From a virus, in IMG/VR virus record IMGVR_UViG_3300014720_000002: a DNA stretch of 64,000 nucleotides. One strand, 5' to 3'. Below are positions 5,324 through 29,672 of this stretch, piece after piece. The notes under the pieces were generated by a model. It had not been told where the DNA came from. It saw only the letters and a list, made by a program, of their open reading frames with translations, and did not search any database. The stretch's first letter is position 1; the number at the start of each line of letters is the position of its first letter. The translations under genes and the position numbers were made by a program.

Positions 5324-5538
5324 TGGTGCGCAGTCCCATTACCGGCCAGGAGTATGTGGTCGAGGCTTCGGCGGGCGGCCTCGTCGGCACTTCTGTGGCT
5401 GTCATCAAGGCGGCTCTGGCGGGATGCAGCCGGGCTGAGGTCAAGGCGCAGCTTGCCAAAGGCCGGGAGCAGTTGCAGCGGGTCAGCCTGGCCGGCACGC
5501 CGGAGTTTTGGTGGGCGGTGGAGAAGATCGTTGGGTGA
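5323..5538 (+). CDS. Hypothetical protein
   Basis: TGATG overlap, 71 aa; stop abuts periodic array A. Confidence 0.65.
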   Translation: MVRSPITGQEYVVEASAGGLVGTSVAVIKAALAGCSRAEVKAQLAKGREQLQRVSLAGTPEFWWAVEKIVG

Positions 5539-5958
5539 TGGCGAGGCAGCGGCAGGTTCTGTTGCTCATTGGTAAGGTCCGTTAATGTCCGGCGCTGTGG
5601 AGTAAAGTGACGGTGAGGCTGGGCTGGGTCACGCATGGTGTTGGTATCGTCCCGATAGGTTACGTTCAGCAAGGTAGCGTGAAGGTGCAGCGCCGGTATG
5701 TCGGCGCCTGGTTTGATCTGGTCTTGCGCAGGTGGTGATCCGTAGCGTCAGGTGAAGTTTCGTCCGGGTGTGGCTCGTCAATGTCGCGCACTGTTCAGCG
5801 AAGGCACTGTGGATCTGGGCCTCGTTCTGTGGCGGTGTTGTGTTGTCCCGTGAGGTTTCGTATTGGTGCGGTAATGCACGCCTCGGCGCAGTGCCGGCAG
5901 GCTACGGTTAGGCCGGGCAATACAAGGCAACGCTTAGCAAAGGTTCAGCAACGCAATG
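5535..5958 (+). repeat. Periodic NNNGY array A (5-nt register with +1 slips)
   Basis: G at nearly every 5th base, usually followed by C/T; register slips at about 5572, 5613, 5644, 5685, ~5700-5711, 5732, 5768, 5804, 5835, 5866, 5897, 5943. Confidence 0.85.
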
Positions 5959-16002: not shown

Positions 16003-16377
16003 ATGACCACCGAGGAACTCTTCGACGCGGTGGCGCCCATCGCCATCTACCACTGCACGGACGTGCGGTTCCAGCAGCGGGCCAAGGTTGGCCTGCGCAA
16101 GCTGAAGGCTGCCGGAGTGCAGCTTCCGGACGAACCGCTGGATGATTTGGCTGACTGGGCCAAGGACGAGCACGACCGGCTGTTCATTGAGATCGTCAGC
16201 GATCTCGCCCCGGAGTGGACCTGGGATTACGACCGCTGGGGTGCCAAGGCATGGAAAGATGAACGCGGCGCGCTGGTGTTCGCCGGTGACGCGCACGATC
16301 AGTTTCCTTGGTATGAGACGGCGGCTCTGCTGAAGGAGCGGGTGCTGGAGCATCAACTGGAGGGAGCGACGGCGTGA
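16003..16377 (+). CDS. Hypothetical protein (may extend to 15923 across a 1-nt frameshift)
   Basis: MTTEELFDAV...; upstream 24-codon ORF stops at TCTTGA in the adjacent frame. Confidence 0.65.
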   Translation: MTTEELFDAVAPIAIYHCTDVRFQQRAKVGLRKLKAAGVQLPDEPLDDLADWAKDEHDRLFIEIVSDLAPEWTWDYDRWGAKAWKDERGALVFAGDAHDQFPWYETAALLKERVLEHQLEGATA

Positions 16378-17030
16378 ACGACGAGCAACTGATCAGTTTG
16401 ATGGACAAGGTCGCGGAGGATCACGCCAGCCGAGGGCAGACCTACGCCGGCGGACCCTATCGCAAGCACCTGGAGGATGTGGAGCGCCTGCTGAGGACCG
16501 CCTGTAACGTCGCCTGGGTGGAAGAGGAGTCGGTCGGCGCTTTGCTTGCCGCCGGCATCCTGCACGACTGGTTCGAGGACTGCTTTGACGGGTCGCACAA
16601 GTTCTCACACTGGCGCCTGACCGGAACGCTGATTGACTGGCAGGGTGAGTTTGGCGTGCCAGCCGTCAGCCTGATGATGGCGCTGCGCTGCTCCGATCCG
16701 CCCGGCATGTCGCGACGTGAGGCCAAACGGGCTATCTTGCCGGTTATCGTGGCCTGCGAAGGTGCCCGGGCAGTCAAGCTGGCTGATCGGATGGCGAATC
16801 TGGAGCAGAGCATTGCTGACCGCAATCGAAAGCATCTGGAACGCTACATTGAAGAGGCTAGGCAGTTAGCGCCGGTGGCGGACCAGCTTGAGACTCCGGT
16901 TGATGCAGTGCAGGAGACTCGACACTACGCCCCGGTGCGAGACTACTTGGCTGGTTGCTATGCGGATGTCCTGGCTCGGGCCGCCGAGAGTTTTCATACT
17001 CTGCGCGGCCCGACCAATGCGGTGAAGTGA
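16374..17030 (+). CDS. RelA/SpoT-type HD-domain hydrolase (small alarmone hydrolase / Mesh1-like)
   Basis: H...Q...G.PY..HL..V, AGILHDWFED, AVKLADRMANL. Confidence 0.8.
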   Translation: MNDEQLISLMDKVAEDHASRGQTYAGGPYRKHLEDVERLLRTACNVAWVEEESVGALLAAGILHDWFEDCFDGSHKFSHWRLTGTLIDWQGEFGVPAVSLMMALRCSDPPGMSRREAKRAILPVIVACEGARAVKLADRMANLEQSIADRNRKHLERYIEEARQLAPVADQLETPVDAVQETRHYAPVRDYLAGCYADVLARAAESFHTLRGPTNAVK

Positions 17031-17373
17031 CGGTATTGGAACGCTTAGCCGCGTGCCGCCATGCCTAGCACAGGCTACGTGCGGTCCGGTCAGGTCTCGT
17101 AATGGTAAAGTGACGCAAAGTCGGGCTTCGTCGAGCGATGGCCGGGTGTGGTCAAGCAGGGTGTGGTGGTTCAAAGTTAAGGTGTCGCGTCGCCTAGTCA
17201 GGTCACGCGCCGGCAATGGATGGTGCCGTCCGGTTTAGCAGCGCAGCGGCATAGTGACGAAAAGGCCTGTAACGTGAAGCACAGGTAAGGTGCCGTGAGG
17301 CATGGTGAGGTCTGGCACAGGTAAAGCAGAGTCACGCGGGGTCCGGTTCAGGCGAGGATAGGTGGAGTCACGC
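17022..17373 (+). repeat. Periodic NNNGY array B
   Basis: G every 5th base (one miss, 17171); slips at 17033, 17074, 17105, 17141, 17182, 17213, 17249, 17285, 17321, 17352. Confidence 0.9.
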
Positions 17374-17376
17374 AGC

Positions 17377-17640
17377 ATGCAGATTCGATTGAAAGAACGC
17401 TGGCAGGCGTGGGTGGAGGTGTGGACCGCCATCCGCGCCTGCCATGCCGGCAGGAACGAGAAGCTGGAGGTGCGGCGCACCGGACAGGTCTGGGACGTCG
17501 GTGCCAGACAGTATCGCGAGCGGCTGGAGTTCCGGGCCGCCGACAACCCCGGCTGGGAAGGCTACAACCGCTCCCGGAACCTGCTGGCGACGAAGGTGCC
17601 GCGCCTGTCCAAGGCGCTGGAAAAGTTGAAGTGGATATGA
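17377..17640 (+). CDS. Hypothetical protein
   Basis: MQIRLKERW..., GGAG upstream at the end of array B. Confidence 0.65.
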   Translation: MQIRLKERWQAWVEVWTAIRACHAGRNEKLEVRRTGQVWDVGARQYRERLEFRAADNPGWEGYNRSRNLLATKVPRLSKALEKLKWI

Positions 17641-17990
17641 GCAAGAAGACGATGACCCTGGTGGTCGAGATCGAGTATGATGGGTTGGAAGGACCGTTCC
17701 GACCTGCCCTGGTGAACAAGCTCAAGGACCGGCTGCACGCCATGGTTGAGCGCGAGGCTGGCGAGGGCGGGCTGTCGCCGGACGATGGCAGTGTGGCCGT
17801 GGCAAGCTGGGACGCCCGGGTGGCTGATGGGCCGCTCACGCTGCTGAACCCGGCGCAGGTGCGCGATCTCAGCAAGCTGCTGGATTACACTGAGGCGGAT
17901 GAAGAGCGACACTACGAGGAGAGCAAACCCTGCCGCAACCACATCTGGCATTCGATTCGCCGGCTGAGGAAAGCTACACCCGAACCATGA
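17637..17990 (+). CDS. Hypothetical protein
   Basis: MSKKTMTLVVEIEY..., ATGA overlaps. Confidence 0.7.
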   Translation: MSKKTMTLVVEIEYDGLEGPFRPALVNKLKDRLHAMVEREAGEGGLSPDDGSVAVASWDARVADGPLTLLNPAQVRDLSKLLDYTEADEERHYEESKPCRNHIWHSIRRLRKATPEP

Positions 17991-20315: not shown

Positions 20316-20603
20316 ATGAGTAAGTCGGAGAAGCTGAGAAAATTGGCCAACGCCGTTCGGCGTTACCGCGGCCTGCTTGGATCGCCTGGGCATGACGGCG
20401 TGGTCCGGTGGAAGCAGCCACCCATACCTTCAGCCAAGGACGATGTCCGGCGCTGGCTGGGCAGGCTGGGCCTGGATGTGGAAGCGCATCTGCGGCGTGT
20501 GGACGAGTTTCCTTCGCTGCAGCAGTTCGCGGAATGGCTGGAAGAGTTGGAGAATGGCAATGAGCACGTTGTGGCAGGAACTTCGGAAGTGGGAAAATCA
20601 TGA
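20316..20603 (+). CDS. Hypothetical protein
   Basis: MSKSEKLRKLANAV..., 95 aa. Confidence 0.65.
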   Translation: MSKSEKLRKLANAVRRYRGLLGSPGHDGVVRWKQPPIPSAKDDVRRWLGRLGLDVEAHLRRVDEFPSLQQFAEWLEELENGNEHVVAGTSEVGKS

Positions 20604-21399
20604 AAAGAAACTGGCTGATCAGGCATTACCAGGCGGCGCTGGTGTTCGCGAGCCGGACCCGCAATCGCCCCCTGTCCGACTACGTTCGACAGGAGTTGAA
20701 AAGGTGGTCGGCGGCACCGTCCTCTGGAAGCCGGTCGATCGCCTAGCGGCTAAGATGCTGGCCAAGTCGCCCTGGTGGGCGCAGCCAGTGCATGTGCCGA
20801 CACCGCCACCAGCGGCGCCGGCTGCAGTTGAGAAGGCAAAAAAGAAGAGAACACACAAGATTATGGGAGACAACGCTGTCATTGTGGAGACAGGAGACAA
20901 GCGTGCGCCACAGGATGTCCGTCCGCGGATGAACGACGCGAGCTACACGAGCGCATGCGGGCTGGAGGTGCACCGGATCAACGGGCAGGACATGATTTCG
21001 CTGGAGAGTGCGCAGACTGTCCTCTGTGCCGAGATTGCGAAAATGCCCAAGGAGACGCGACCGCTGGTTTTGGCCGCCCAGGACGCCCGACGGATCGTTA
21101 ATGAGTTGACGGACGGCATTGGCGCCGATCAGGAAAAGTTCAGGGTCAGTGCCAAGATGTTCCTGGAGGATGTCCGCCAGACCCGGTTTGCGGTGGTGCA
21201 GGAGGCCAGCGCAATGATGACGCCATTGCGCGATGTCCGCACTTTCTTCCTGGGGCCGGATTACAAGGAGCAGGTGACCAGGTTGAAGGAGTTCGTGGAA
21301 CTTTGCGAGCGGCTGCAGAAGCTCAAGGAGTCGGGTTTCCTGGATAACGTCGCGGACACCATGCTGCGACTGGCAGATCGGCCAGCCACCGGCGCCTGA
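20560..21399 (+). CDS. Hypothetical protein (start 20560 or 20863)
   Basis: Long open frame with helical C-terminal half; start ambiguous. Confidence 0.6.
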   Translation: MSTLWQELRKWENHEKKLADQALPGGAGVREPDPQSPPVRLRSTGVEKVVGGTVLWKPVDRLAAKMLAKSPWWAQPVHVPTPPPAAPAAVEKAKKKRTHKIMGDNAVIVETGDKRAPQDVRPRMNDASYTSACGLEVHRINGQDMISLESAQTVLCAEIAKMPKETRPLVLAAQDARRIVNELTDGIGADQEKFRVSAKMFLEDVRQTRFAVVQEASAMMTPLRDVRTFFLGPDYKEQVTRLKEFVELCERLQKLKESGFLDNVADTMLRLADRPATGA

Positions 21400-21405
21400 T
21401 TGAAT

Positions 21406-21483
21406 GCGCTGTGGTGCTTGGAAAGGTCTCGTGCGGTCGCGTTAAGTCACGGTCCAGTGAGGGCGTGGCAAAGTCCTGCGCGG
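21406..21483 (+). repeat. Short periodic NNNGY array C
   Basis: G at 21406, 11, 16, 21, 26, 31, 36, 41, 46, 51, then slips at 21452 and 21468. Confidence 0.75.
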
Positions 21484-21529
21484 AACCGCACCAGTTGGGC
21501 TTCGGCCCGCTGGTGCGGTTTCCTTTAGC
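21482..21529 (+). terminator. Hairpin with cUUCGg loop plus TCCTTTAGC (hairpin family copy 3)
   Basis: AACCGCACCAG-TTGGGC-TTCG-GCCCG-CTGGTGCGGTT-TCCTTTAGC. Confidence 0.7.
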
Positions 21530-21647
21530 CATCCACTCCCGCAACCAAGCACGCCGCTGTGTCATAAGCCTTTGGACAGGACTGTTTCTTGTCTGGGAGC
21601 ATCCGGCCTCCAACCATTTAAGCAACTGCCGGAAGGAGAACTGTAAC

Positions 21648-22730
21648 ATGTCAAAGATCAAAGAGGCGGCGATCCTCAAAATCGTCACTCATCCCGGCCG
21701 GGCGCACCGGGATGAGTTTCTGGCCATCGCCATCGTGCTGGCCAGCCTGCCCGCCGCGCAGATGCGGCAGGTCGCCATCGAACGCCGTCAACCCAAGCGC
21801 GAGGACACCCTGGATAAGGGCGTGCTGGTGCTGGACATCGGCGGCGGTGAATTCGACCACCACCAACTGTCCCCAGAGGCGCCGGCGACCTGTGCGCTCA
21901 CCCTGGTGCTCAAGGACCTCGGGCTGCTGGAGCAGGCGCGCGAGGTCTGGTCGTGGCTGGAGTTTGTCGAGGTCATGGACAGCAAGGGACCGGGGGCGGT
22001 CGCCTCGCGCGCCGGCGTGCCCTGGGACAAGCTCTCCGGGCTGACCATGAATCCGGTCGAGATGTGGGCGCTCCATTGGTTCGCCAACAACCCGGACAAC
22101 ATGAAGGACGTGCTCAACGGCGTCGGTGCCCGGTTGTTGTCCGAGCTTGCGGACTACCGGTCGGCCCTGACCCTCCTGGACGCGCACGCCCATGTGGTGT
22201 TCGTGCGCGGGGTGGCGTTGCTCGACCTCACATTCACGAGCGACACGACCGCCGTCAACAAGTGGCGCATGCAGCACTGCCCTCACGCCAAGGGCAGCAT
22301 CATGAAGGACGACCGCGGCGGGGGCTACACGCTCTACGCCTGGCAGATGGGCGGCGGGTCCGGCTGGCTGGACTTCCGCCGGCTGGCGCATCCCGGCATC
22401 ACCTTCATCCACAATGGAGGGTTCCTGGCCAAGACGCGGATGACGGTGACGTTCCGTGAGGTTCTGGATCTGCTGACACAGGCGCTGCCGTCGGAGCCGG
22501 TCTGCCTCGGCAGCATGGTGGGCAATGGGTTCTCGGTGCAGGGAAGCTGGCAGCCGGCGCCGACAGATGACGGATCGCATTTCGTCATGGTGACGATCGG
22601 GACGGCCAAGCACGGGTGTGTGGAAGGTATGCTCTGCTTCCGCACGGAGGCGGCGCTGCGCTCGGCCATGAGCCATGTGCGCAACCGCATTGAGATCAGC
22701 CTGTCGAAGGGGGAGGTGGCCCATGCTTGA
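21648..22730 (+). CDS. MYG1-family (DHH superfamily) metal-dependent hydrolase/exonuclease
   Basis: VTHPGRAHRDEFLA...LDIGGGEFDHHQ; AAGGAG RBS before ATG 21648. Confidence 0.75.
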   Translation: MSKIKEAAILKIVTHPGRAHRDEFLAIAIVLASLPAAQMRQVAIERRQPKREDTLDKGVLVLDIGGGEFDHHQLSPEAPATCALTLVLKDLGLLEQAREVWSWLEFVEVMDSKGPGAVASRAGVPWDKLSGLTMNPVEMWALHWFANNPDNMKDVLNGVGARLLSELADYRSALTLLDAHAHVVFVRGVALLDLTFTSDTTAVNKWRMQHCPHAKGSIMKDDRGGGYTLYAWQMGGGSGWLDFRRLAHPGITFIHNGGFLAKTRMTVTFREVLDLLTQALPSEPVCLGSMVGNGFSVQGSWQPAPTDDGSHFVMVTIGTAKHGCVEGMLCFRTEAALRSAMSHVRNRIEISLSKGEVAHA

Positions 22731-22860
22731 AGTGCGCATGCACTGGCGCCGAGGTCATCTGCACACAGTGAAGTTCGGCAAGGGTCGGGAGAGTTCCCGG
22801 CTGGACTGGTTCGAGCCGATATTGGTCAATGCGCCGGAAGGAAAGGAGGTGAACGTATGA
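22723..22860 (+). CDS. Small hypothetical protein
   Basis: GGAGG RBS; overlaps both neighbours. Confidence 0.55.
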   Translation: MLEVRMHWRRGHLHTVKFGKGRESSRLDWFEPILVNAPEGKEVNV

Positions 22861-23213
22861 GCGAAAAGAGTGAGCAAGTGCTGCGGGACGCCATCGAAAA
22901 ACATGTTGGCGCACTACTTCACGCAGAGTTGCAACGGGACGAACTGCATGTCTATCTGTCCTGGGACAAAGCTAGTGGAAAAGTCACGGTTAATTGCTTC
23001 TCGACCTTGGCGCTGAACCTTCTCGATCGATCGCATAAGACCACCGTCGGCGGCTTGGACGAGTTGATCGACAGCGTGTTGGAGGGCTGCGACCGAAAGC
23101 AGGCCAAGGTTTGTCTGGACCAGATACAGGCAAGCTTGGACAAGGCTCGTGCTGGCTGGCAGAAAGTATGCGCTGAGTGGGATCGGGAACATCGACCTGC
23201 GAATCGCAGGTAA
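22857..23213 (+). CDS. Hypothetical protein; last of the small-gene block
   Basis: GGAGG RBS, 118 aa; stop abuts array D. Confidence 0.7.
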   Translation: MSEKSEQVLRDAIEKHVGALLHAELQRDELHVYLSWDKASGKVTVNCFSTLALNLLDRSHKTTVGGLDELIDSVLEGCDRKQAKVCLDQIQASLDKARAGWQKVCAEWDREHRPANRR

Positions 23214-23590
23214 AGCAAAGGTGAGGCGAGGTGTAGCATCGTTGCGTGCGGTTCAGGTGTAGTGCCGTGAAGATGGGTAATGTAAAGCGCCGGCGAGGTG
23301 ATGCTTGGTGTGGTGGCATCGCGTTTGGAACAGTATTGGAGACGCGGCGCACAGCATGGTAGCGCAATGTGGTGGCGTCGTATCGAGGCGCTGAGTATTG
23401 GCCTGGCACGGCGGCGGTGGGCACCGTAAAGCTACGGCATGGTCACGTCAGGTTCAGTGCAGCACAGGTAACGCGACGCAAGGTTCGGTTTCGTGCTGTC
23501 ACGTATCGGTTTGGGTGGGTCGAGCGCTGGGCTGTCAGGCAAAGGCGAGGCGGGGTCTGGTCCGGTTTCGTTACGTCGTGCGCTGTGCCG
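23210..23590 (+). repeat. Periodic NNNGY array D
   Basis: About 75 register positions, G at all but one (23318); slips at 23221, 23257, 23293, 23339, 23375, 23401, 23437, 23468, 23509, 23545. Confidence 0.9.
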
Positions 23591-23639
23591 ACGAACACCA
23601 GTTGGGGCGCAAGCCCTGGCTGGTGTTCGTCCTTTAGCT
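23591..23639 (+). terminator. Hairpin with GCAA loop plus CCTTTAGCT (hairpin family copy 4)
   Basis: ACGAACACCAG-TTGGGGC-GCAA-GCCCTGG-CTGGTGTTCGT-CCTTTAGCT. Confidence 0.7.
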
Positions 23640-23680
23640 ATCAGTTGAAACTCCCGCCGGATTGCGGCACGCTCCGCCTG

Positions 23681-24433
23681 ATGTCTGAGCCCCGTGTCAC
23701 CGCCATCGTCGTCAACTGGCGCCGTCCCGACAACGTCCAGCGGATTCTCCGCGCACTGCGCCAGTCGTCGGCGCGCTGCCACATCATCGTCTGCGATGTC
23801 CGGGTGGATGAGACCTATCGGAAGGACACCTTCTTTGAAGGCGCCGACGAGGTTCTCCACCTGTCCCGCAACCACGGCGGTTTCAACCGGCTGGTGCCCG
23901 CCATGCTTGTGCAGACCGAGTTCACCTACTTCCATGACGATGACCTGCTGCCCGGACCCGAGGCGCTCGCCGCCCTGATGCGTTGCGCTGACGGCATGCT
24001 GGGCATGGGCGTGCTTGGCCAGATCGGACGGGTCTATCCAGACGGGCAGTTCGGGACGGATGATGTGCTGCGCGATGAGCACGTCTGCGTGCCGGTGGAC
24101 AACGTCATCCGCGGCGCGCTCGTCCGCTCGGCACTGCTGCCCGGCGTCATGCACTTCTGGCATCGCCACGGGCGCAACTTCATCACGCCGGAGGGGTTGG
24201 TGCATGATGACCTGATGCTGAGCTTCGCGCTCCGCTCCGCCGGGCACATCAACCGGCTCACGCCCGCTGACCACCGCAACGACACCATGATCAACAGCGA
24301 GGAGTTGCCGGACCAGTATGCACTCAGCCGCCGGCCCCAGCACCGACCCGAGCGCGCCGCCATTGTGGCATGGTTCAATCAGCAGTTTCCCGGCCGGCTC
24401 ACCCCGCTGCTGCCGGCGGTCCATGTTGTATGA
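23681..24433 (+). CDS. GT-A fold glycosyltransferase
   Basis: VTAIVVNWRRP...IIVCD...YFHDDDLLP (DxD); true start after array D. Confidence 0.75.
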   Translation: MSEPRVTAIVVNWRRPDNVQRILRALRQSSARCHIIVCDVRVDETYRKDTFFEGADEVLHLSRNHGGFNRLVPAMLVQTEFTYFHDDDLLPGPEALAALMRCADGMLGMGVLGQIGRVYPDGQFGTDDVLRDEHVCVPVDNVIRGALVRSALLPGVMHFWHRHGRNFITPEGLVHDDLMLSFALRSAGHINRLTPADHRNDTMINSEELPDQYALSRRPQHRPERAAIVAWFNQQFPGRLTPLLPAVHVV

Positions 24434-27344: not shown

Positions 27345-29672
27345 ATGCAGAAGCTGATGGCCGCCCTGGGCACCTCGGTCCCGGAAGGTATCCTCGGTCC
27401 CCGGCTGCGCGACCTGGCGCGCGAGGGTGGGCTGGCGTTCGCGCATCCTGGTGGATGGACCGATGCCTACCGCTCCCGCAAGCGGTATGCCCCAATCTGG
27501 CGGACGGCGCAGGAACTTGGCGTGCTGCCGACCGTCACTGCTGACAAGCGCCGGCTGCGTGACTTTGCTGACGGGGCGGTGGTCAATCTCGGGACGGACA
27601 AACCGCCGTTCAAGACCACTTGGAATGCCCGTGCGCCTGACTACGCCAGAAACTGGGCCTTGTCCGACGGCTCCGTGGACAAGCTGCGTGAGGCCGAATT
27701 GTTGCACGGATTCATACCAAAGACGGAAAGCCTTCGCCGGTTCACCCGTTCTGTCAGTCTTTCTCCGGCACGACAGGCTGCGTTGAAGCAGAAGCTGGAT
27801 GCGGCATATCCCGAAGGCTGGCTCATCAAGTCGCGCGGTTATATCGGGCAGATGACATCTGACATGCCGACGGACCTGGCCGCGGCGGGCAAATGGCCGG
27901 TGTTAGACGGGCAGGCCGCCGACTGGATCGTCCAGTCCCGGCAGGACATAGGTCGGTTTGCCCAGCCGCAGGCGCAGGTTGAGCGCTGGCTGTCCAAGCG
28001 TTTCGGTGCGCGTCCGCACGGCACGCACGAATACAGGGTGCATGTGCTCAATGGTCGGGTGGTGCCTTATGCCACAAAGCACAAAGGCGGTCCGGCGCAG
28101 GGTTTTTTGGAACGCTGGATGCCGTGGAATACGGCGCGCATAAACCAGGCCGAGGCGTTGACCCAGCGGGCCGCGAACCAGCTTGGTCGCGGCGATCGTA
28201 ACAAGACTTTCTATGCTTTTGACATAGGCTTCACTAACCGAGGAAAGCCGTTTGTCATCGAGGCCAATCCTTCAGCCACTGATGGAATGTCCGGCGAGTT
28301 CGCGGACCCTCATGTTCAGGACGCCATCGCGGCGGCCATCAAGGGCCAGTTACCCAACTACGTGAAAGCGCGGCGTGGGCTGTGGGCAGGCGGCACCGGG
28401 CTGGGAGTCTATCAGGCGTTCAAGCCAGAGGATGACACCCGCCCCGCCTGGCAGCGCTGGATGGGCAAGCAGTCGAGCCGGCGCGGTGGCTGGCTGGGCG
28501 CGTTTCCAGAGTATGTCGGTCTGTTGGAGTATGTTGGTCGTCCTGGCCTGTATAAGTCGGGAGGTATGGTAACGTCTGCGCTGGCCGGAATGCTGGCCGG
28601 TCGGGGAGTTGACGTAGCCGCCACCAAACTGCTGCGCCCGCTGGTGCCGGGGTGGAATTCATGGATGCACCGTATGGGACTTGAAGCCGGCTTGACGGGC
28701 GGGACCAGGGCGTTTTTACCAAACACCAGAAGGGCTTTGGGCGCCATCTCTGGCGGCGGCACTGGGGTGGTGGATTATGAGCTTGGCAACCAGATCGGCA
28801 GCGAGGTGCGCGGACGTTACCTTAAATCGCCTGGCCTGGTGGCCCGCGACACGGCTTCCCGGCTCACCGCGGACCGCTACCTGCAGGCATTGCGGACGAA
28901 TAAGGTGCCAGGACTGGCGCGGCGAGAAGCACAGCTATTGCGTCGGTCGGCACCATCCTTCGTTCGGAGCATCGCTGCGGGAGAGGTCAGCATGACCGGA
29001 CTGACTGGTGAAAATCTGACCTCGCCGTTGCTGCGGCACGCCCGGGCCGCGTATCAACACACTGCACCTGAGTTGTTGGCGCAGGATGTGACGCAATGGA
29101 CCCGCTGGTTGCCGAAGAGGTTCAGACCGGATCCGGCAACGACGGGCATGCGGATGCAACAACATCTTTCCAAACTGACTGGACCAGATCGTCCCTGGCG
29201 GCAAGCTATCGCGGGACCGGCGGTATCGGGAGGTTTGGGAGGTTTGGGAAGTTTGGCTGAAAATCTGGGGCAGGAGTTGATTTCGGGCAGCATGGCAGGA
29301 CCAATCATTCCCAGCGTGATCGCCAGCGCCGCCGGGCATCTACCTAACACTGCCGTCAATAATGTGTTGACGGCAGGTGCGGCGGCGGGGGCGTCCAATA
29401 CACTGCAGGCATTGAAATACAAATTGATGCTAACTGGTCACCAGCAACCTCGGCCGCTGGGATGGGGCGCACGGCTGCTGGACGCGACCTTCGAGCCGAC
29501 GGCTTCAGAATTCATACGGGCTGGGCAGGATTTACGACGGCTGCAGGATTCATCGCGCAGACTGTCGGCAACCCGACAGCCGGTTCAGGCTAGGCTCCAG
29601 GCGCATTCAAATGTAGGGCAAGGATTGCAGGCCGACGCGCGTCAGCTACAGCAGGCATGGTTTAACCGGTGA
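27345..29672 (+). CDS. ATP-grasp (RimK-like) ligase domain fused to a Gly/Ala-rich C-terminal region
   Basis: WLIKSRG, WIVQ, HEYRVHVLNG, FYAFDI...PFVIEANP (E-x-N) in the N-terminal half. Confidence 0.7.
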   Translation: MQKLMAALGTSVPEGILGPRLRDLAREGGLAFAHPGGWTDAYRSRKRYAPIWRTAQELGVLPTVTADKRRLRDFADGAVVNLGTDKPPFKTTWNARAPDYARNWALSDGSVDKLREAELLHGFIPKTESLRRFTRSVSLSPARQAALKQKLDAAYPEGWLIKSRGYIGQMTSDMPTDLAAAGKWPVLDGQAADWIVQSRQDIGRFAQPQAQVERWLSKRFGARPHGTHEYRVHVLNGRVVPYATKHKGGPAQGFLERWMPWNTARINQAEALTQRAANQLGRGDRNKTFYAFDIGFTNRGKPFVIEANPSATDGMSGEFADPHVQDAIAAAIKGQLPNYVKARRGLWAGGTGLGVYQAFKPEDDTRPAWQRWMGKQSSRRGGWLGAFPEYVGLLEYVGRPGLYKSGGMVTSALAGMLAGRGVDVAATKLLRPLVPGWNSWMHRMGLEAGLTGGTRAFLPNTRRALGAISGGGTGVVDYELGNQIGSEVRGRYLKSPGLVARDTASRLTADRYLQALRTNKVPGLARREAQLLRRSAPSFVRSIAAGEVSMTGLTGENLTSPLLRHARAAYQHTAPELLAQDVTQWTRWLPKRFRPDPATTGMRMQQHLSKLTGPDRPWRQAIAGPAVSGGLGGLGSLAENLGQELISGSMAGPIIPSVIASAAGHLPNTAVNNVLTAGAAAGASNTLQALKYKLMLTGHQQPRPLGWGARLLDATFEPTASEFIRAGQDLRRLQDSSRRLSATRQPVQARLQAHSNVGQGLQADARQLQQAWFNR

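What the first reader, a model, noticed from the sequence alone, without database searches (positions are those of the whole stretch)
23210..23590. Helically phased NNNGY arrays: a 5-nt register that slips +1 about every 36 nt (best copy, array D)
Seen: between two genes, G occupies almost every 5th base (about 74 of 75 positions by manual count), mostly followed by C/T, while the other three bases vary, so this is not an ordinary tandem repeat. The register shifts by exactly +1 through a 6-nt NNNGGY-type unit at 23221, 23257, 23293, 23339, 23375, 23401, 23437, 23468, 23509, 23545 (segments 36, 36, 46, 36, 26, 36, 31, 41, 36 = 5k+1). The mean period is 324/63 = 5.14 nt, or about 10.3 nt per two units. 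Arrays A and B give about 5.15 by the same count despite different sequences. Established: about 10.2-10.4 bp per turn is typical of DNA wrapped on a protein core, and the B. subtilis TRAP ring binds RNA with 5-nt-periodic NAG triplets. Inference: these are selected cis-elements where only phasing matters, either a DNA wrapping/loading platform or an RNA track for a ring-shaped protein (7 units per 36 nt). I know of no characterised function. This is the best candidate for an undescribed system in the window.
Basis: partly seen in the sequence, partly recalled or inferred. Interest (0 to 1): 0.92.

Follow-up and report, generated by a model that had tools for sequence, protein, structure and literature searches.

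The report
Phage VIPR guide-RNA arrays (GY-NNN type)
The five-base G-pyrimidine pattern is real: it is a string of short guide RNAs for a Cas7-like protein (a VIPR system, first described in 2026) carried by a large phage, and each "+1 slip" marks the border between two guides rather than DNA helical phasing.

Summary
Spectral power peaks at 5.14 nt, z = 22-31 against dinucleotide shuffles.

The window holds four such arrays, all intergenic and on the gene strand: A 5505-5957, B 17019-17376, C 21406-21487, D 23210-23594.

These are staggered guide-RNA (vrRNA) arrays of a VIPR system (bioRxiv 10.64898/2026.04.26.720920 and .720927).
- The phage encodes one Cas7-fold Vipr protein 13 kb upstream of array A.
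- In 74 of 80 viral contigs encoding its homologs, the same kind of array lies within 1.5 kb (median 22 bp), on the same strand.
- Array period varies with guide length (5.02-5.26 over 91 arrays). Slips show no phase compensation and no 10-10.7-nt signal appears, so the DNA-wrapping and heptamer-ring readings fail.
- Each 5n+1 segment reads as one guide, (GYNNN)n plus a closing G.
- A relative phage has arrays at the same two sites. Its flanks and tail hairpin are 76-90% identical, but the arrays cannot be aligned.

No targets were found, and transcription could not be checked. This is a new member of a known kind. The scan already reported such arrays in at least 17 other genomes.

The parts
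5505..5957 (+). Array A: about 13-14 abutting guides of GYNNN units. The first clean guide starts at 5541, after the stop codon of the upstream ORF at 5536-5538. The array ends at the ATG of the next gene (5956).
   Evidence: 88 lattice points, 82 G; 74 five-nt and 13 six-nt steps; period 5.15. z = 31 against shuffles. Guide list; ORFs.
17019..17376 (+). Array B: about 10-11 guides, fitted between the stop codon of ORF 16374-17030 and the ATG at 17377.
   Evidence: 69 lattice points, 68 G; slip spacings 31, 36, 41, 31, 36, 36, 36, 31. z = 29..
21406..21487 (+). Array C: short array of about 3 guides between ORF 20377-21399 and the MYG1-like gene (ATG 21648).
   Evidence: Lattice trace and sequence. 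The orthologous site in relative L098 holds a roughly 300-nt array.
21488..21530 (+). Tail module of array C: hairpin GCACCAG-TT-GGGC(UUCG)GCCC-G-CTGGTGC, followed by ..CCTTTAGCC.
   Evidence: The motif has two copies in the genome, one after array C and one after array D. Homology to relative L098 begins exactly here, at 21484.
23210..23594 (+). Array D (the finding): 2 leading units, then nine guides closed by slips (23221-23544; lengths 36, 36, 46, 36, 26, 36, 31, 41, 36 nt), then a terminal run of 9-10 units that leads into the tail hairpin.
   Evidence: 75 lattice points, 73 G. z = 21.8. Guide list. The core is no more folded than shuffles, z = +0.4.
23590..23638 (+). Tail module of array D: a 19-bp hairpin with a GCAA tetraloop (GACGAACACCAGUUGGGGC GCAA GCCCUGGCUGGUGUUCGUC), followed by CUUUAGC.
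   Evidence: Fold of 23540-23680 gives -71.4 kcal/mol, z = -5.0. A second copy follows array C. It is conserved in relative L098, where the alignment resumes at 23582.

Best explanation
Arrays A-D are staggered guide-RNA (vrRNA) arrays of a VIPR system carried by a large phage (167.6-kb record, about 86% complete). Proposed mechanism: the + strand is transcribed with the surrounding genes. Copies of the phage's Cas7-like Vipr protein (G000:C1:40072-40848, about 8 kb before the window start) bind the RNA, one protomer per pentamer. They sequester the constant G and pyrimidine and present the three variable bases. Each filament then binds a matching double-stranded DNA target in a rival mobile element and silences it. 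Each 5n+1-nt segment is one guide, (GYNNN)n closed by one more G. Two abutting guides therefore give 'GG' and shift the register by +1. The 5.14-nt mean period only reflects this phage's commonest guide length of 7 units. Shown here: the pattern, the protein fold, the protein-array association across viral contigs, and the turnover of array content between relatives. Inferred from the published type II system: transcription, processing at the G|G borders, filament formation and DNA silencing. Unknown: the targets and the exact pairing rule of the NNN.
For: (1) Pattern and significance.
(2) One Vipr-type gene in the genome (profile match E 5.9e-80). The AlphaFold model has pLDDT 79.5. Best Foldseek matches are Cas7 of type VII and Csm3 of type III (E 1e-7, probability 1.0). 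A profile search of PDB sequences hits type VII Cas7 (E 0.0015) and, marginally, 36pp 'SUSP1 Vipr protein' (E 0.94).
(3) hhalign against the SUSP1 Vipr gene product aligns the G-loops, GLGQWRSGGWGTF with GVGDWRP-RFGRF (probability 63%, E 7e-5). W178 and R179, which hold G2 and Y3 in SUSP1, are kept. D177, which holds G1, is Q here, an invariant column in this clade's alignment. That fits a repeat that has lost the first G.
(4) Association: at least 545 IMG/VR stretches encode relatives. In 74 of the 80 fetched loci an array of 36 or more units lies within 1.5 kb (median 22 bp), with its G lattice on the gene strand.
(5) Slips act as punctuation. About 84% of 6-nt units end in G followed by G. 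The last unit has its own consensus, G-C-A-A-N-G. The period tracks guide length: 5.153 +/- 0.038 over 91 arrays, and 5.22 in genome G001, whose 49 guides have 4-5 units.
(6) Relative phage (Vipr 86% and glycosyltransferase 81% identical): arrays sit at the same two intergenic sites. Flanks and tail hairpin are 76-90% identical in nucleotides, but the arrays cannot be aligned even at word size 7.
(7) No cas operon or CRISPR-type repeats.
(8) Literature: VIPR, 'staggered arrays' whose vrRNAs follow one another directly, and alternative YNNNG repeats (10.64898/2026.04.26.720920).
Against: No target was found for any guide. Sequence similarity to the experimentally studied SUSP1 Vipr is limited to the G-loop, and the clade profile finds nothing in the SUSP1 genome. 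Here the arrays are 13-31 kb from the vipr gene rather than adjacent, unlike 74 of 80 relatives. Figure S18 of the paper, which defines 'staggered', is not held, so equating the +1 slip with the published guide boundary rests on the legend text alone.
Confidence: 0.9

Rival explanations
1. DNA-level element: G at every half turn (10.3 bp per two units) forms a platform on which a protein wraps or loads double-stranded DNA.
For: The mean period in this phage is 5.12-5.15 in three arrays. Doubled, that resembles the helical repeat of wrapped DNA.
Against: No power at 10.0-10.7 nt for any base, for W, or for GT/GC beyond controls that shuffle units on the same lattice. The period ranges from 5.02 to 5.26 among 91 arrays of the same protein clade and follows guide length. 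Slip order shows no phase compensation. The signal is strand-specific, always on the strand of the vipr homolog.
Confidence: 0.02
2. RNA track for a ring-shaped RNA-binding protein (TRAP-like or Sm-like heptamer) that controls expression of the downstream gene, with 7 units per ring.
For: Arrays A and B end exactly at the start codon of the next gene. 36 nt is the commonest segment in arrays B and D.
Against: Segment lengths run from 21 to 51 nt in this phage, and relatives use mostly 4-6 units. The arrays follow a Cas7-like protein across 74 of 80 contigs, not a ring protein. Array content is replaced between relatives while the downstream gene stays, which is unexpected for a leader that regulates that gene.
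Confidence: 0.03
3. The arrays are VIPR-type RNA but act as decoys that titrate the Vipr proteins of rival phages, or they serve the phage's second Cas7-like protein rather than the first.
For: The arrays are not next to the vipr gene. No target was found. The phage has a second Cas7-fold gene at G000:C1:164476-164920.
Against: Homologs of the first protein, not the second, sit beside such arrays: 74 of 80 loci against 0 of 12. The variable triplets differ in every unit and turn over between relatives, as expected of guides.
Confidence: 0.04

Closest known systems
VIPR systems with staggered vrRNA arrays and alternative YNNNG repeats (bioRxiv 10.64898/2026.04.26.720920, text, methods 'VIPR type classification' and legend of fig. 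S18)
   Same: A stand-alone Cas7-like RAMP in a virus. Intergenic 5-nt repeats with a constant G-pyrimidine and variable bases. Guides follow one another directly, with no separate spacer or handle.
   Different: The staggered type was not among the architectures the paper confirmed by small-RNA sequencing, and its pairing rule is not given. Here the arrays are split into four blocks spread over 18 kb, 13-31 kb from the vipr gene, set between unrelated genes. Two of the four end in a conserved hairpin tail.
Type II VIPR of Escherichia phage SUSP1 (KT454805.2, vipr 28474-29061; PDB 36pp; 10.64898/2026.04.26.720927)
   Same: One protomer per pentamer. G-loop motif G-x-W-R...F/W-G-x-F with the Trp and Arg that hold G2 and Y3. 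The repeat tract is followed by a structured 3' tail. The information content is similar: here about 15-27 variable bases per guide, against 18-32 for 9-16 NN units.
   Different: SUSP1 uses GGY-NN with about 100-nt separate vrRNAs of 9-16 repeats next to the gene. Here the unit is GY-NNN with 5-9 units per guide and abutting guides. The Asp that reads the first G is Gln. Overall sequence similarity is undetectable outside the G-loop.
Class 1 CRISPR Cas7 backbone on crRNA
   Same: RAMP fold (Foldseek E 1e-7 to type VII Cas7 and Csm3). A periodic protein filament on the guide, with a thumb that interrupts pairing at fixed intervals.
   Different: 6-nt period with one flipped base, long conserved repeats, and cas1/cas2 adaptation genes. 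None of these is present here.
   Same: A 5-nt-periodic RNA motif read by repeated protein subunits.
   Different: From general knowledge, TRAP reads 11 (G/U)AG triplets on a closed ring in one leader. Here there are 70-90 units per array, punctuated into guides, linked to a Cas7-like protein, and the variable bases are the payload.

Membership tests
VIPR system (Vipr + vrRNA) | Stand-alone RAMP protein (RRM core, glycine-rich loop, thumb) outside any cas operon | tested here: met
   Model pLDDT 79.5. Foldseek best matches are Cas7/Csm3, E 1e-7. G-loop GLGQWRSGGWGTF. No CRISPR-type repeats in the genome. Neighbouring genes are small and of unknown function.
VIPR system (Vipr + vrRNA) | Homology to experimentally characterised Vipr (SUSP1) | tested here: inconclusive
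   hhalign probability 63%, E 7e-5, over 37 G-loop columns only. PDB profile hit to 36pp has E 0.94. The clade profile finds nothing in the SUSP1 genome. The structure of 36pp is not in the fold library used.
VIPR system (Vipr + vrRNA) | Tandem pentanucleotide repeats with constant G(G)Y and hypervariable remaining bases, at least 4 units, non-coding | tested here: met
   G at 92-98% of lattice points, Y next in 84-92% of units, the other three positions mixed, no period 3.
VIPR system (Vipr + vrRNA) | Arrays linked to the vipr gene (typically in the flanking intergenic regions) | tested here: met
   Same genome and same strand. Across the clade, 74 of 80 loci have the array within 1.5 kb. In this phage adjacency itself is not met: the arrays lie 13-31 kb downstream and nothing array-like flanks the gene. 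The paper calls adjacency typical, not obligatory.
VIPR system (Vipr + vrRNA) | Residues that hold the constant bases (SUSP1: H17/D177 for G1, R138/W178 for G2, R179 pocket for Y3) | tested here: met
   W and R align and are conserved in the clade. D177 aligns with an invariant Q, matching the loss of G1 in the repeat. H17 and R138 could not be placed by a tool.
VIPR system (Vipr + vrRNA) | vrRNAs are expressed, processed and co-purify with Vipr | not testable with these tools
VIPR system (Vipr + vrRNA) | Variable bases spell a gapped DNA target in a competing element | tested here: inconclusive
   No match above controls in the phage's own genome, relatives, 80 VIPR loci, two complete relative genomes, IMG/VR, metagenome contigs or GTDB genomes. 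Indirect support: in-register stop triplets are depleted in the clade (181 against 245 expected, z -5.5).
VIPR staggered array | Consecutive vrRNAs follow one another directly, the end of one marking the start of the next | tested here: met
   Segments of 5n+1 nt abut at G|G. The border units have their own consensus. The actual RNA ends were not observed.
Helically phased DNA-bending or wrapping element | Sequence signal at one helical turn (about 10-10.5 bp) with a constant physical period | tested here: not met
   No 10.0-10.7-nt power. The period varies from 5.02 to 5.26 with guide length and shows no phase compensation.
CRISPR array | Direct repeats of about 24-40 nt separated by unique spacers, with cas genes | tested here: not met
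   TRF finds no such repeat in the window. No 14-mer family recurs at 40-110 nt spacing in the genome.

The most novel reading that the evidence does not exclude
In this GY-NNN clade the Vipr filament keeps the 5 RNA : 3 DNA geometry of type II VIPR but, having lost the pocket for the first G (Asp to Gln), lets that base pair with what is the skipped base in SUSP1. Targets would then be read as contiguous triplets, codon by codon, with no gap. In addition, the guides would be matured out of ordinary operon transcripts from arrays scattered between genes, rather than from a dedicated locus.
Probability: 0.35. Interest if true: 0.6.

Novelty: new member of a known kind. Interest (0 to 1): 0.35.

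Why it matters
The finding explains a pattern that looked like an undescribed system, and it removes the helical-phasing idea. It also adds a well-delimited natural example of the least studied VIPR format:
- one constant G plus a pyrimidine, with three variable bases per unit;
- about 38 short abutting guides;
- arrays far from the effector gene.

It offers three testable points:
- the 5n+1 'closing G' rule for guide borders;
- a residue change (Asp to Gln in the G-loop) that goes with the loss of the first G;
- the fact that relatives with 76-90% identical flanks carry completely different guides at the same sites, which shows fast guide turnover.

How such guides are acquired is unknown. 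Orthologous arrays like these are the material needed to study it.

Tried and rejected
Coding and known RNA families
- Coding reading: rejected. There is no period-3 signal, and the arrays cannot be aligned between relatives whose flanks align.
- Known RNA family: none in Rfam.
- Structured RNA: the array core is no more stable than shuffles (z +0.4). Only the tail hairpin is structured.

Target searches, all negative or at chance level
- Own genome under 0-, 1- and 2-base skips.
- Guide peptides against the phage's own six-frame translation. The best case (A2 reverse strand against the RNA polymerase beta-like motif MGLNARIGL) has p = 0.02 before correcting for about 50 tests, so it was dropped.
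- All-against-all search of about 920 guides from 91 arrays over 1.39 Mb of VIPR loci, with exact and mismatch-tolerant seeds. The only excess, at a 2-base skip, was arrays matching homologous arrays.
- Exact decoded guides D9 and D11 in IMG/VR, wobble-free D11 in IMG/VR, and D9 in metagenome contigs.
- Wobble-free D11 in GTDB genomes: 8 scattered hits in unrelated taxa, with chance-level third-position matches and no second guide nearby.
- Cross-targeting between this phage, relative L098 and the complete genomes G001 and G002.

Codon-likeness of the triplets
- In-register stops are depleted in the clade (z -5.5) but not significantly in this phage (z -1.2).
- The fit to a codon model beats position-preserving shuffles (z 8.6 in the clade, 1.9 here), but the in-frame model is not the best of the six frames in the clade.
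- Similar guide pairs in G001 differ synonymously in 4 of 9 differing triplets (for example TTA/CTA and CGA/AGA), against 20% in shifted frames. With only 6 pairs this is merely suggestive.
- An ATG excess at the first triplet is confounded by a general preference for A there.

Other
- SUSP1 genome searched with the clade profile: nothing.
- Close relatives sought through the glycosyltransferase in IMG/VR: only 25% identical hits.

Full report
**Observation**

The region 23210-23600 was read and analysed numerically. G power peaks sharply at a period of 5.14 nt. A lattice trace that allows steps of 4, 5 or 6 nt places G on 73 of 75 lattice points, with 64 five-nt steps and 10 six-nt steps. The base after G is a pyrimidine in 56 of 64 five-nt units, and the other three positions are mixed.

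Against 300 dinucleotide-preserving shuffles the peak has z = 21.8 for array D, 29.1 for B and 31.0 for A. Only the harmonics 36/7 and 36/14 carry power. No period-3 signal is present: 0.2-0.9, against 13.3 in the adjacent gene. Tandem Repeats Finder does not detect the arrays as repeats; its only row inside them is a 28-nt one at 5927-5954. Rfam gives no match in the window.

The window lies at 48542-112541 of a single 167,647-bp virus record estimated to be 86% complete. In the whole record only arrays A (window 5505-5957), B (17019-17376) and D exceed the spectral threshold. A short fourth array, C (21406-21487), appears in the lattice trace. All four are intergenic and carry the G lattice on the strand of the surrounding genes. 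A and B fill the space between a stop codon and the next ATG.

**The lead and the literature**

Notes from earlier readers of the same genome suggested a 'VIPR-like' system and pointed to Cas7-like genes outside the window. I checked both points.

VIPR (Viral Interference Programmable Repeat) systems were described in 2026 preprints. A stand-alone RAMP protein, Vipr, polymerises on a vrRNA made of GGY-NN pentamers, one protomer per repeat. It sequesters GGY and presents NN, which pair with double-stranded DNA while skipping every third target base. Binding silences transcription of competing phages and satellites.

[quoted passage not shown] A later preprint recovered 5-nt-period arrays with non-canonical motifs next to Vipr-like folds.

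**The protein**

The gene at G000:C1:40072-40848 (L001 4091-4933) has no Pfam, PHROG or direct PDB sequence match. It does have 26 homologs in the large protein collection.
- Its model (pLDDT 79.5) matches Cas7 of type VII and Csm3 of type III best (Foldseek E 1e-7, probability 1.0).
- The clade profile hits type VII Cas7 (E 0.0015) and, marginally, PDB 36pp 'SUSP1 Vipr protein' (E 0.94).
- I located the SUSP1 locus in KT454805.2 and read its GGT-NN vrRNAs and vipr gene.
- hhalign of the clade profile against that protein aligns the glycine-rich loops, GLGQWRSGGWGTF with GVGDWRP-RFGRF (probability 63%, E 7e-5).

In SUSP1, W178 stacks on G2, R179 closes the pyrimidine pocket and D177 hydrogen-bonds G1. 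Here the Trp and Arg are conserved, while the Asp is an invariant Gln. That fits a repeat which keeps G-pyrimidine but has lost the first G. Outside the G-loop, similarity to SUSP1 is not detectable.

**Association of protein and arrays**

A scan of IMG/VR found at least 545 stretches encoding relatives of this protein, and 80 loci were fetched.
- In 74 of the 80 loci an array of at least 36 units lies within 1.5 kb of the gene (median 22 bp), with the G lattice on the gene strand.
- Over the 91 arrays pooled from those loci and this phage, the period is 5.153 +/- 0.038, ranging from 5.02 to 5.26.
- About 84% of six-nt units end in G and are followed by G.
- The commonest number of units between slips is 5-6.
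- The unit before a slip has its own consensus, G-C-A-A-N-G.
- A complete 204-kb relative genome (G001) has one 1.2-kb array right after its vipr gene. Its period is 5.22, and it holds 49 segments of 4-5 units that typically begin GCAAN or GTAAN and end GTGNNG.

**What the slip is**

The +1 slip is punctuation between guides, not a physical phase correction.
- The order of slip spacings shows no compensation across 85 arrays: mean z +0.49 against permuted order, lag-1 correlation 0.007.
- Mean segment length per array ranges from 12.6 to 39.9 nt.
- In this window no base or dinucleotide has power at 10.0-10.7 nt beyond controls that shuffle units on the same lattice.

In SUSP1 the G's of a repeat are held by one protomer and the pyrimidine by the next. 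A guide with n presented segments would therefore need n+1 anchoring G's. This is my inference, and it accounts for the 5n+1 arithmetic and the GG at borders. The value 5.14 = 36/7 only says that seven units is this phage's commonest guide length.

**Turnover between relatives**

A relative phage from Logan assemblies has a Vipr 86% identical and a glycosyltransferase 81% identical to this phage's. It carries arrays at the same two intergenic sites as arrays C and D.

blastn with word size 7 aligns the two phages at 76-90% identity on both sides. The alignments resume exactly at the tail hairpins (21484 and 23582). Nothing aligns across the arrays. Numbers and lengths of guides also differ: array C is about 85 nt here and about 300 nt there. 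This is the behaviour of a guide array whose scaffold is kept while its content is replaced.

**Tails**

Arrays C and D each end in a homologous hairpin followed by CCTTTAGC. The stem CACCAG..GGGC/GCCC..CTGGTG is shared; the tetraloop is UUCG in one copy and GCAA in the other. These are the only two copies in the genome. The array D copy is very stable (z -5.0). The array core is not structured (z +0.4). This parallels the published layout of a repeat tract followed by a structured 3' tail, although the hairpin could equally be a terminator.

**Pairing rule and targets**

These remain open. I decoded about 30 guides of five or more units by taking the three variable bases of each unit.

Every search for matches stayed at the level of shuffled controls or found nothing. 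The searches covered the phage's own genome, the relative's contigs, the 80 VIPR loci, two complete relative genomes, IMG/VR, metagenome contigs and GTDB genomes, with 0, 1 or 2 skipped bases.

Indirect evidence suggests that the triplets follow codons of target genes:
- In the clade, in-register stop triplets are depleted (181 observed against 245 expected, z -5.5).
- The triplets fit a codon model better than position-preserving shuffles (z 8.6).
- Near-duplicate guides in G001 differ by synonymous changes, such as AAG/AAA, GTG/GTC, TTA/CTA and CGA/AGA.

In this phage alone these signals are weak (z -1.2 and 1.9), and the G001 sample is only six pairs. The contiguous-triplet reading is therefore the novel case, not a conclusion.

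**Verdict**

The pattern is real, strongly non-random and functional-looking. It belongs to a kind published in 2026, and this scan has already met it in at least 17 other genomes. Three features distinguish this instance:
- the GY-NNN format;
- short abutting guides, mostly 5-9 units;
- four arrays dispersed 13-31 kb from the effector gene.

Transcription, processing and targets are not shown here.

Noticed in passing
G000:C1:164476-164920 (L002 6477-6920), about 52 kb beyond the window end: A second, minimal Cas7-fold protein (148 aa; model pLDDT 91; Foldseek TM up to 0.70 to type VII Cas7). It lies between an SbcC-like ATPase and an SF2 helicase. Its G-loop (GLSPFGSKFGFGRF) lacks the Q-W-R motif. 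Its 12 IMG/VR homolog loci have no pentamer array within 6 kb. Of 5 complete or nearly complete (98-100%) large-phage genomes carrying it, 2 also carry a Vipr of the first type.
   Followed up: partly
window 21488-21530 and 23590-23638; L098 1237-1285 and 4104-4160: A conserved tail module after arrays C and D: a nested hairpin with a stable tetraloop, then CCTTTAGC, then ACTCCCGC a little further on. Arrays A and B lack it. It could be the vrRNA 3' tail or a phage terminator.
   Followed up: partly
window 22732-22838 and 22857-23213; L098 2521-3582: The relative phage has a 353-aa AcrVA2-like (anti-CRISPR family, PF26125) gene between the MYG1-like gene and array D. This phage keeps only about 107 nt matching that gene's 3' end (90% identical). 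An unrelated 118-aa ORF follows.
   Followed up: partly
L001 5253-5729 (G000:C1:41252-41728): A DUF8296 (PF26948) gene lies two genes downstream of vipr. It keeps that position in the near-identical contig L083 and in relative contig L085. This makes it a candidate accessory (vap-like) gene, untested.
   Followed up: no
G001:C1:75801-76976 (loci L120): A complete 204-kb relative genome carries 49 very short guides (4-5 units, 21 or 26 nt). Several are near-duplicates that differ only by synonymous codon changes when read as triplets, for example KNYVD written twice and NIL-stop written twice.
   Followed up: partly
window 17362-17640 and 17409-17990: Two overlapping + strand ORFs in different frames follow array B. 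It was not resolved which one is the real gene after the ATG at 17377.
   Followed up: no
window 21648-22730 and 23681-24433: The genes flanking arrays C and D are a MYG1-like protein (PF03690, E 3.6e-6) and a family-2 glycosyltransferase (PF13641, just under the curated cut-off). All other array-flanking ORFs have no Pfam match.
   Followed up: yes
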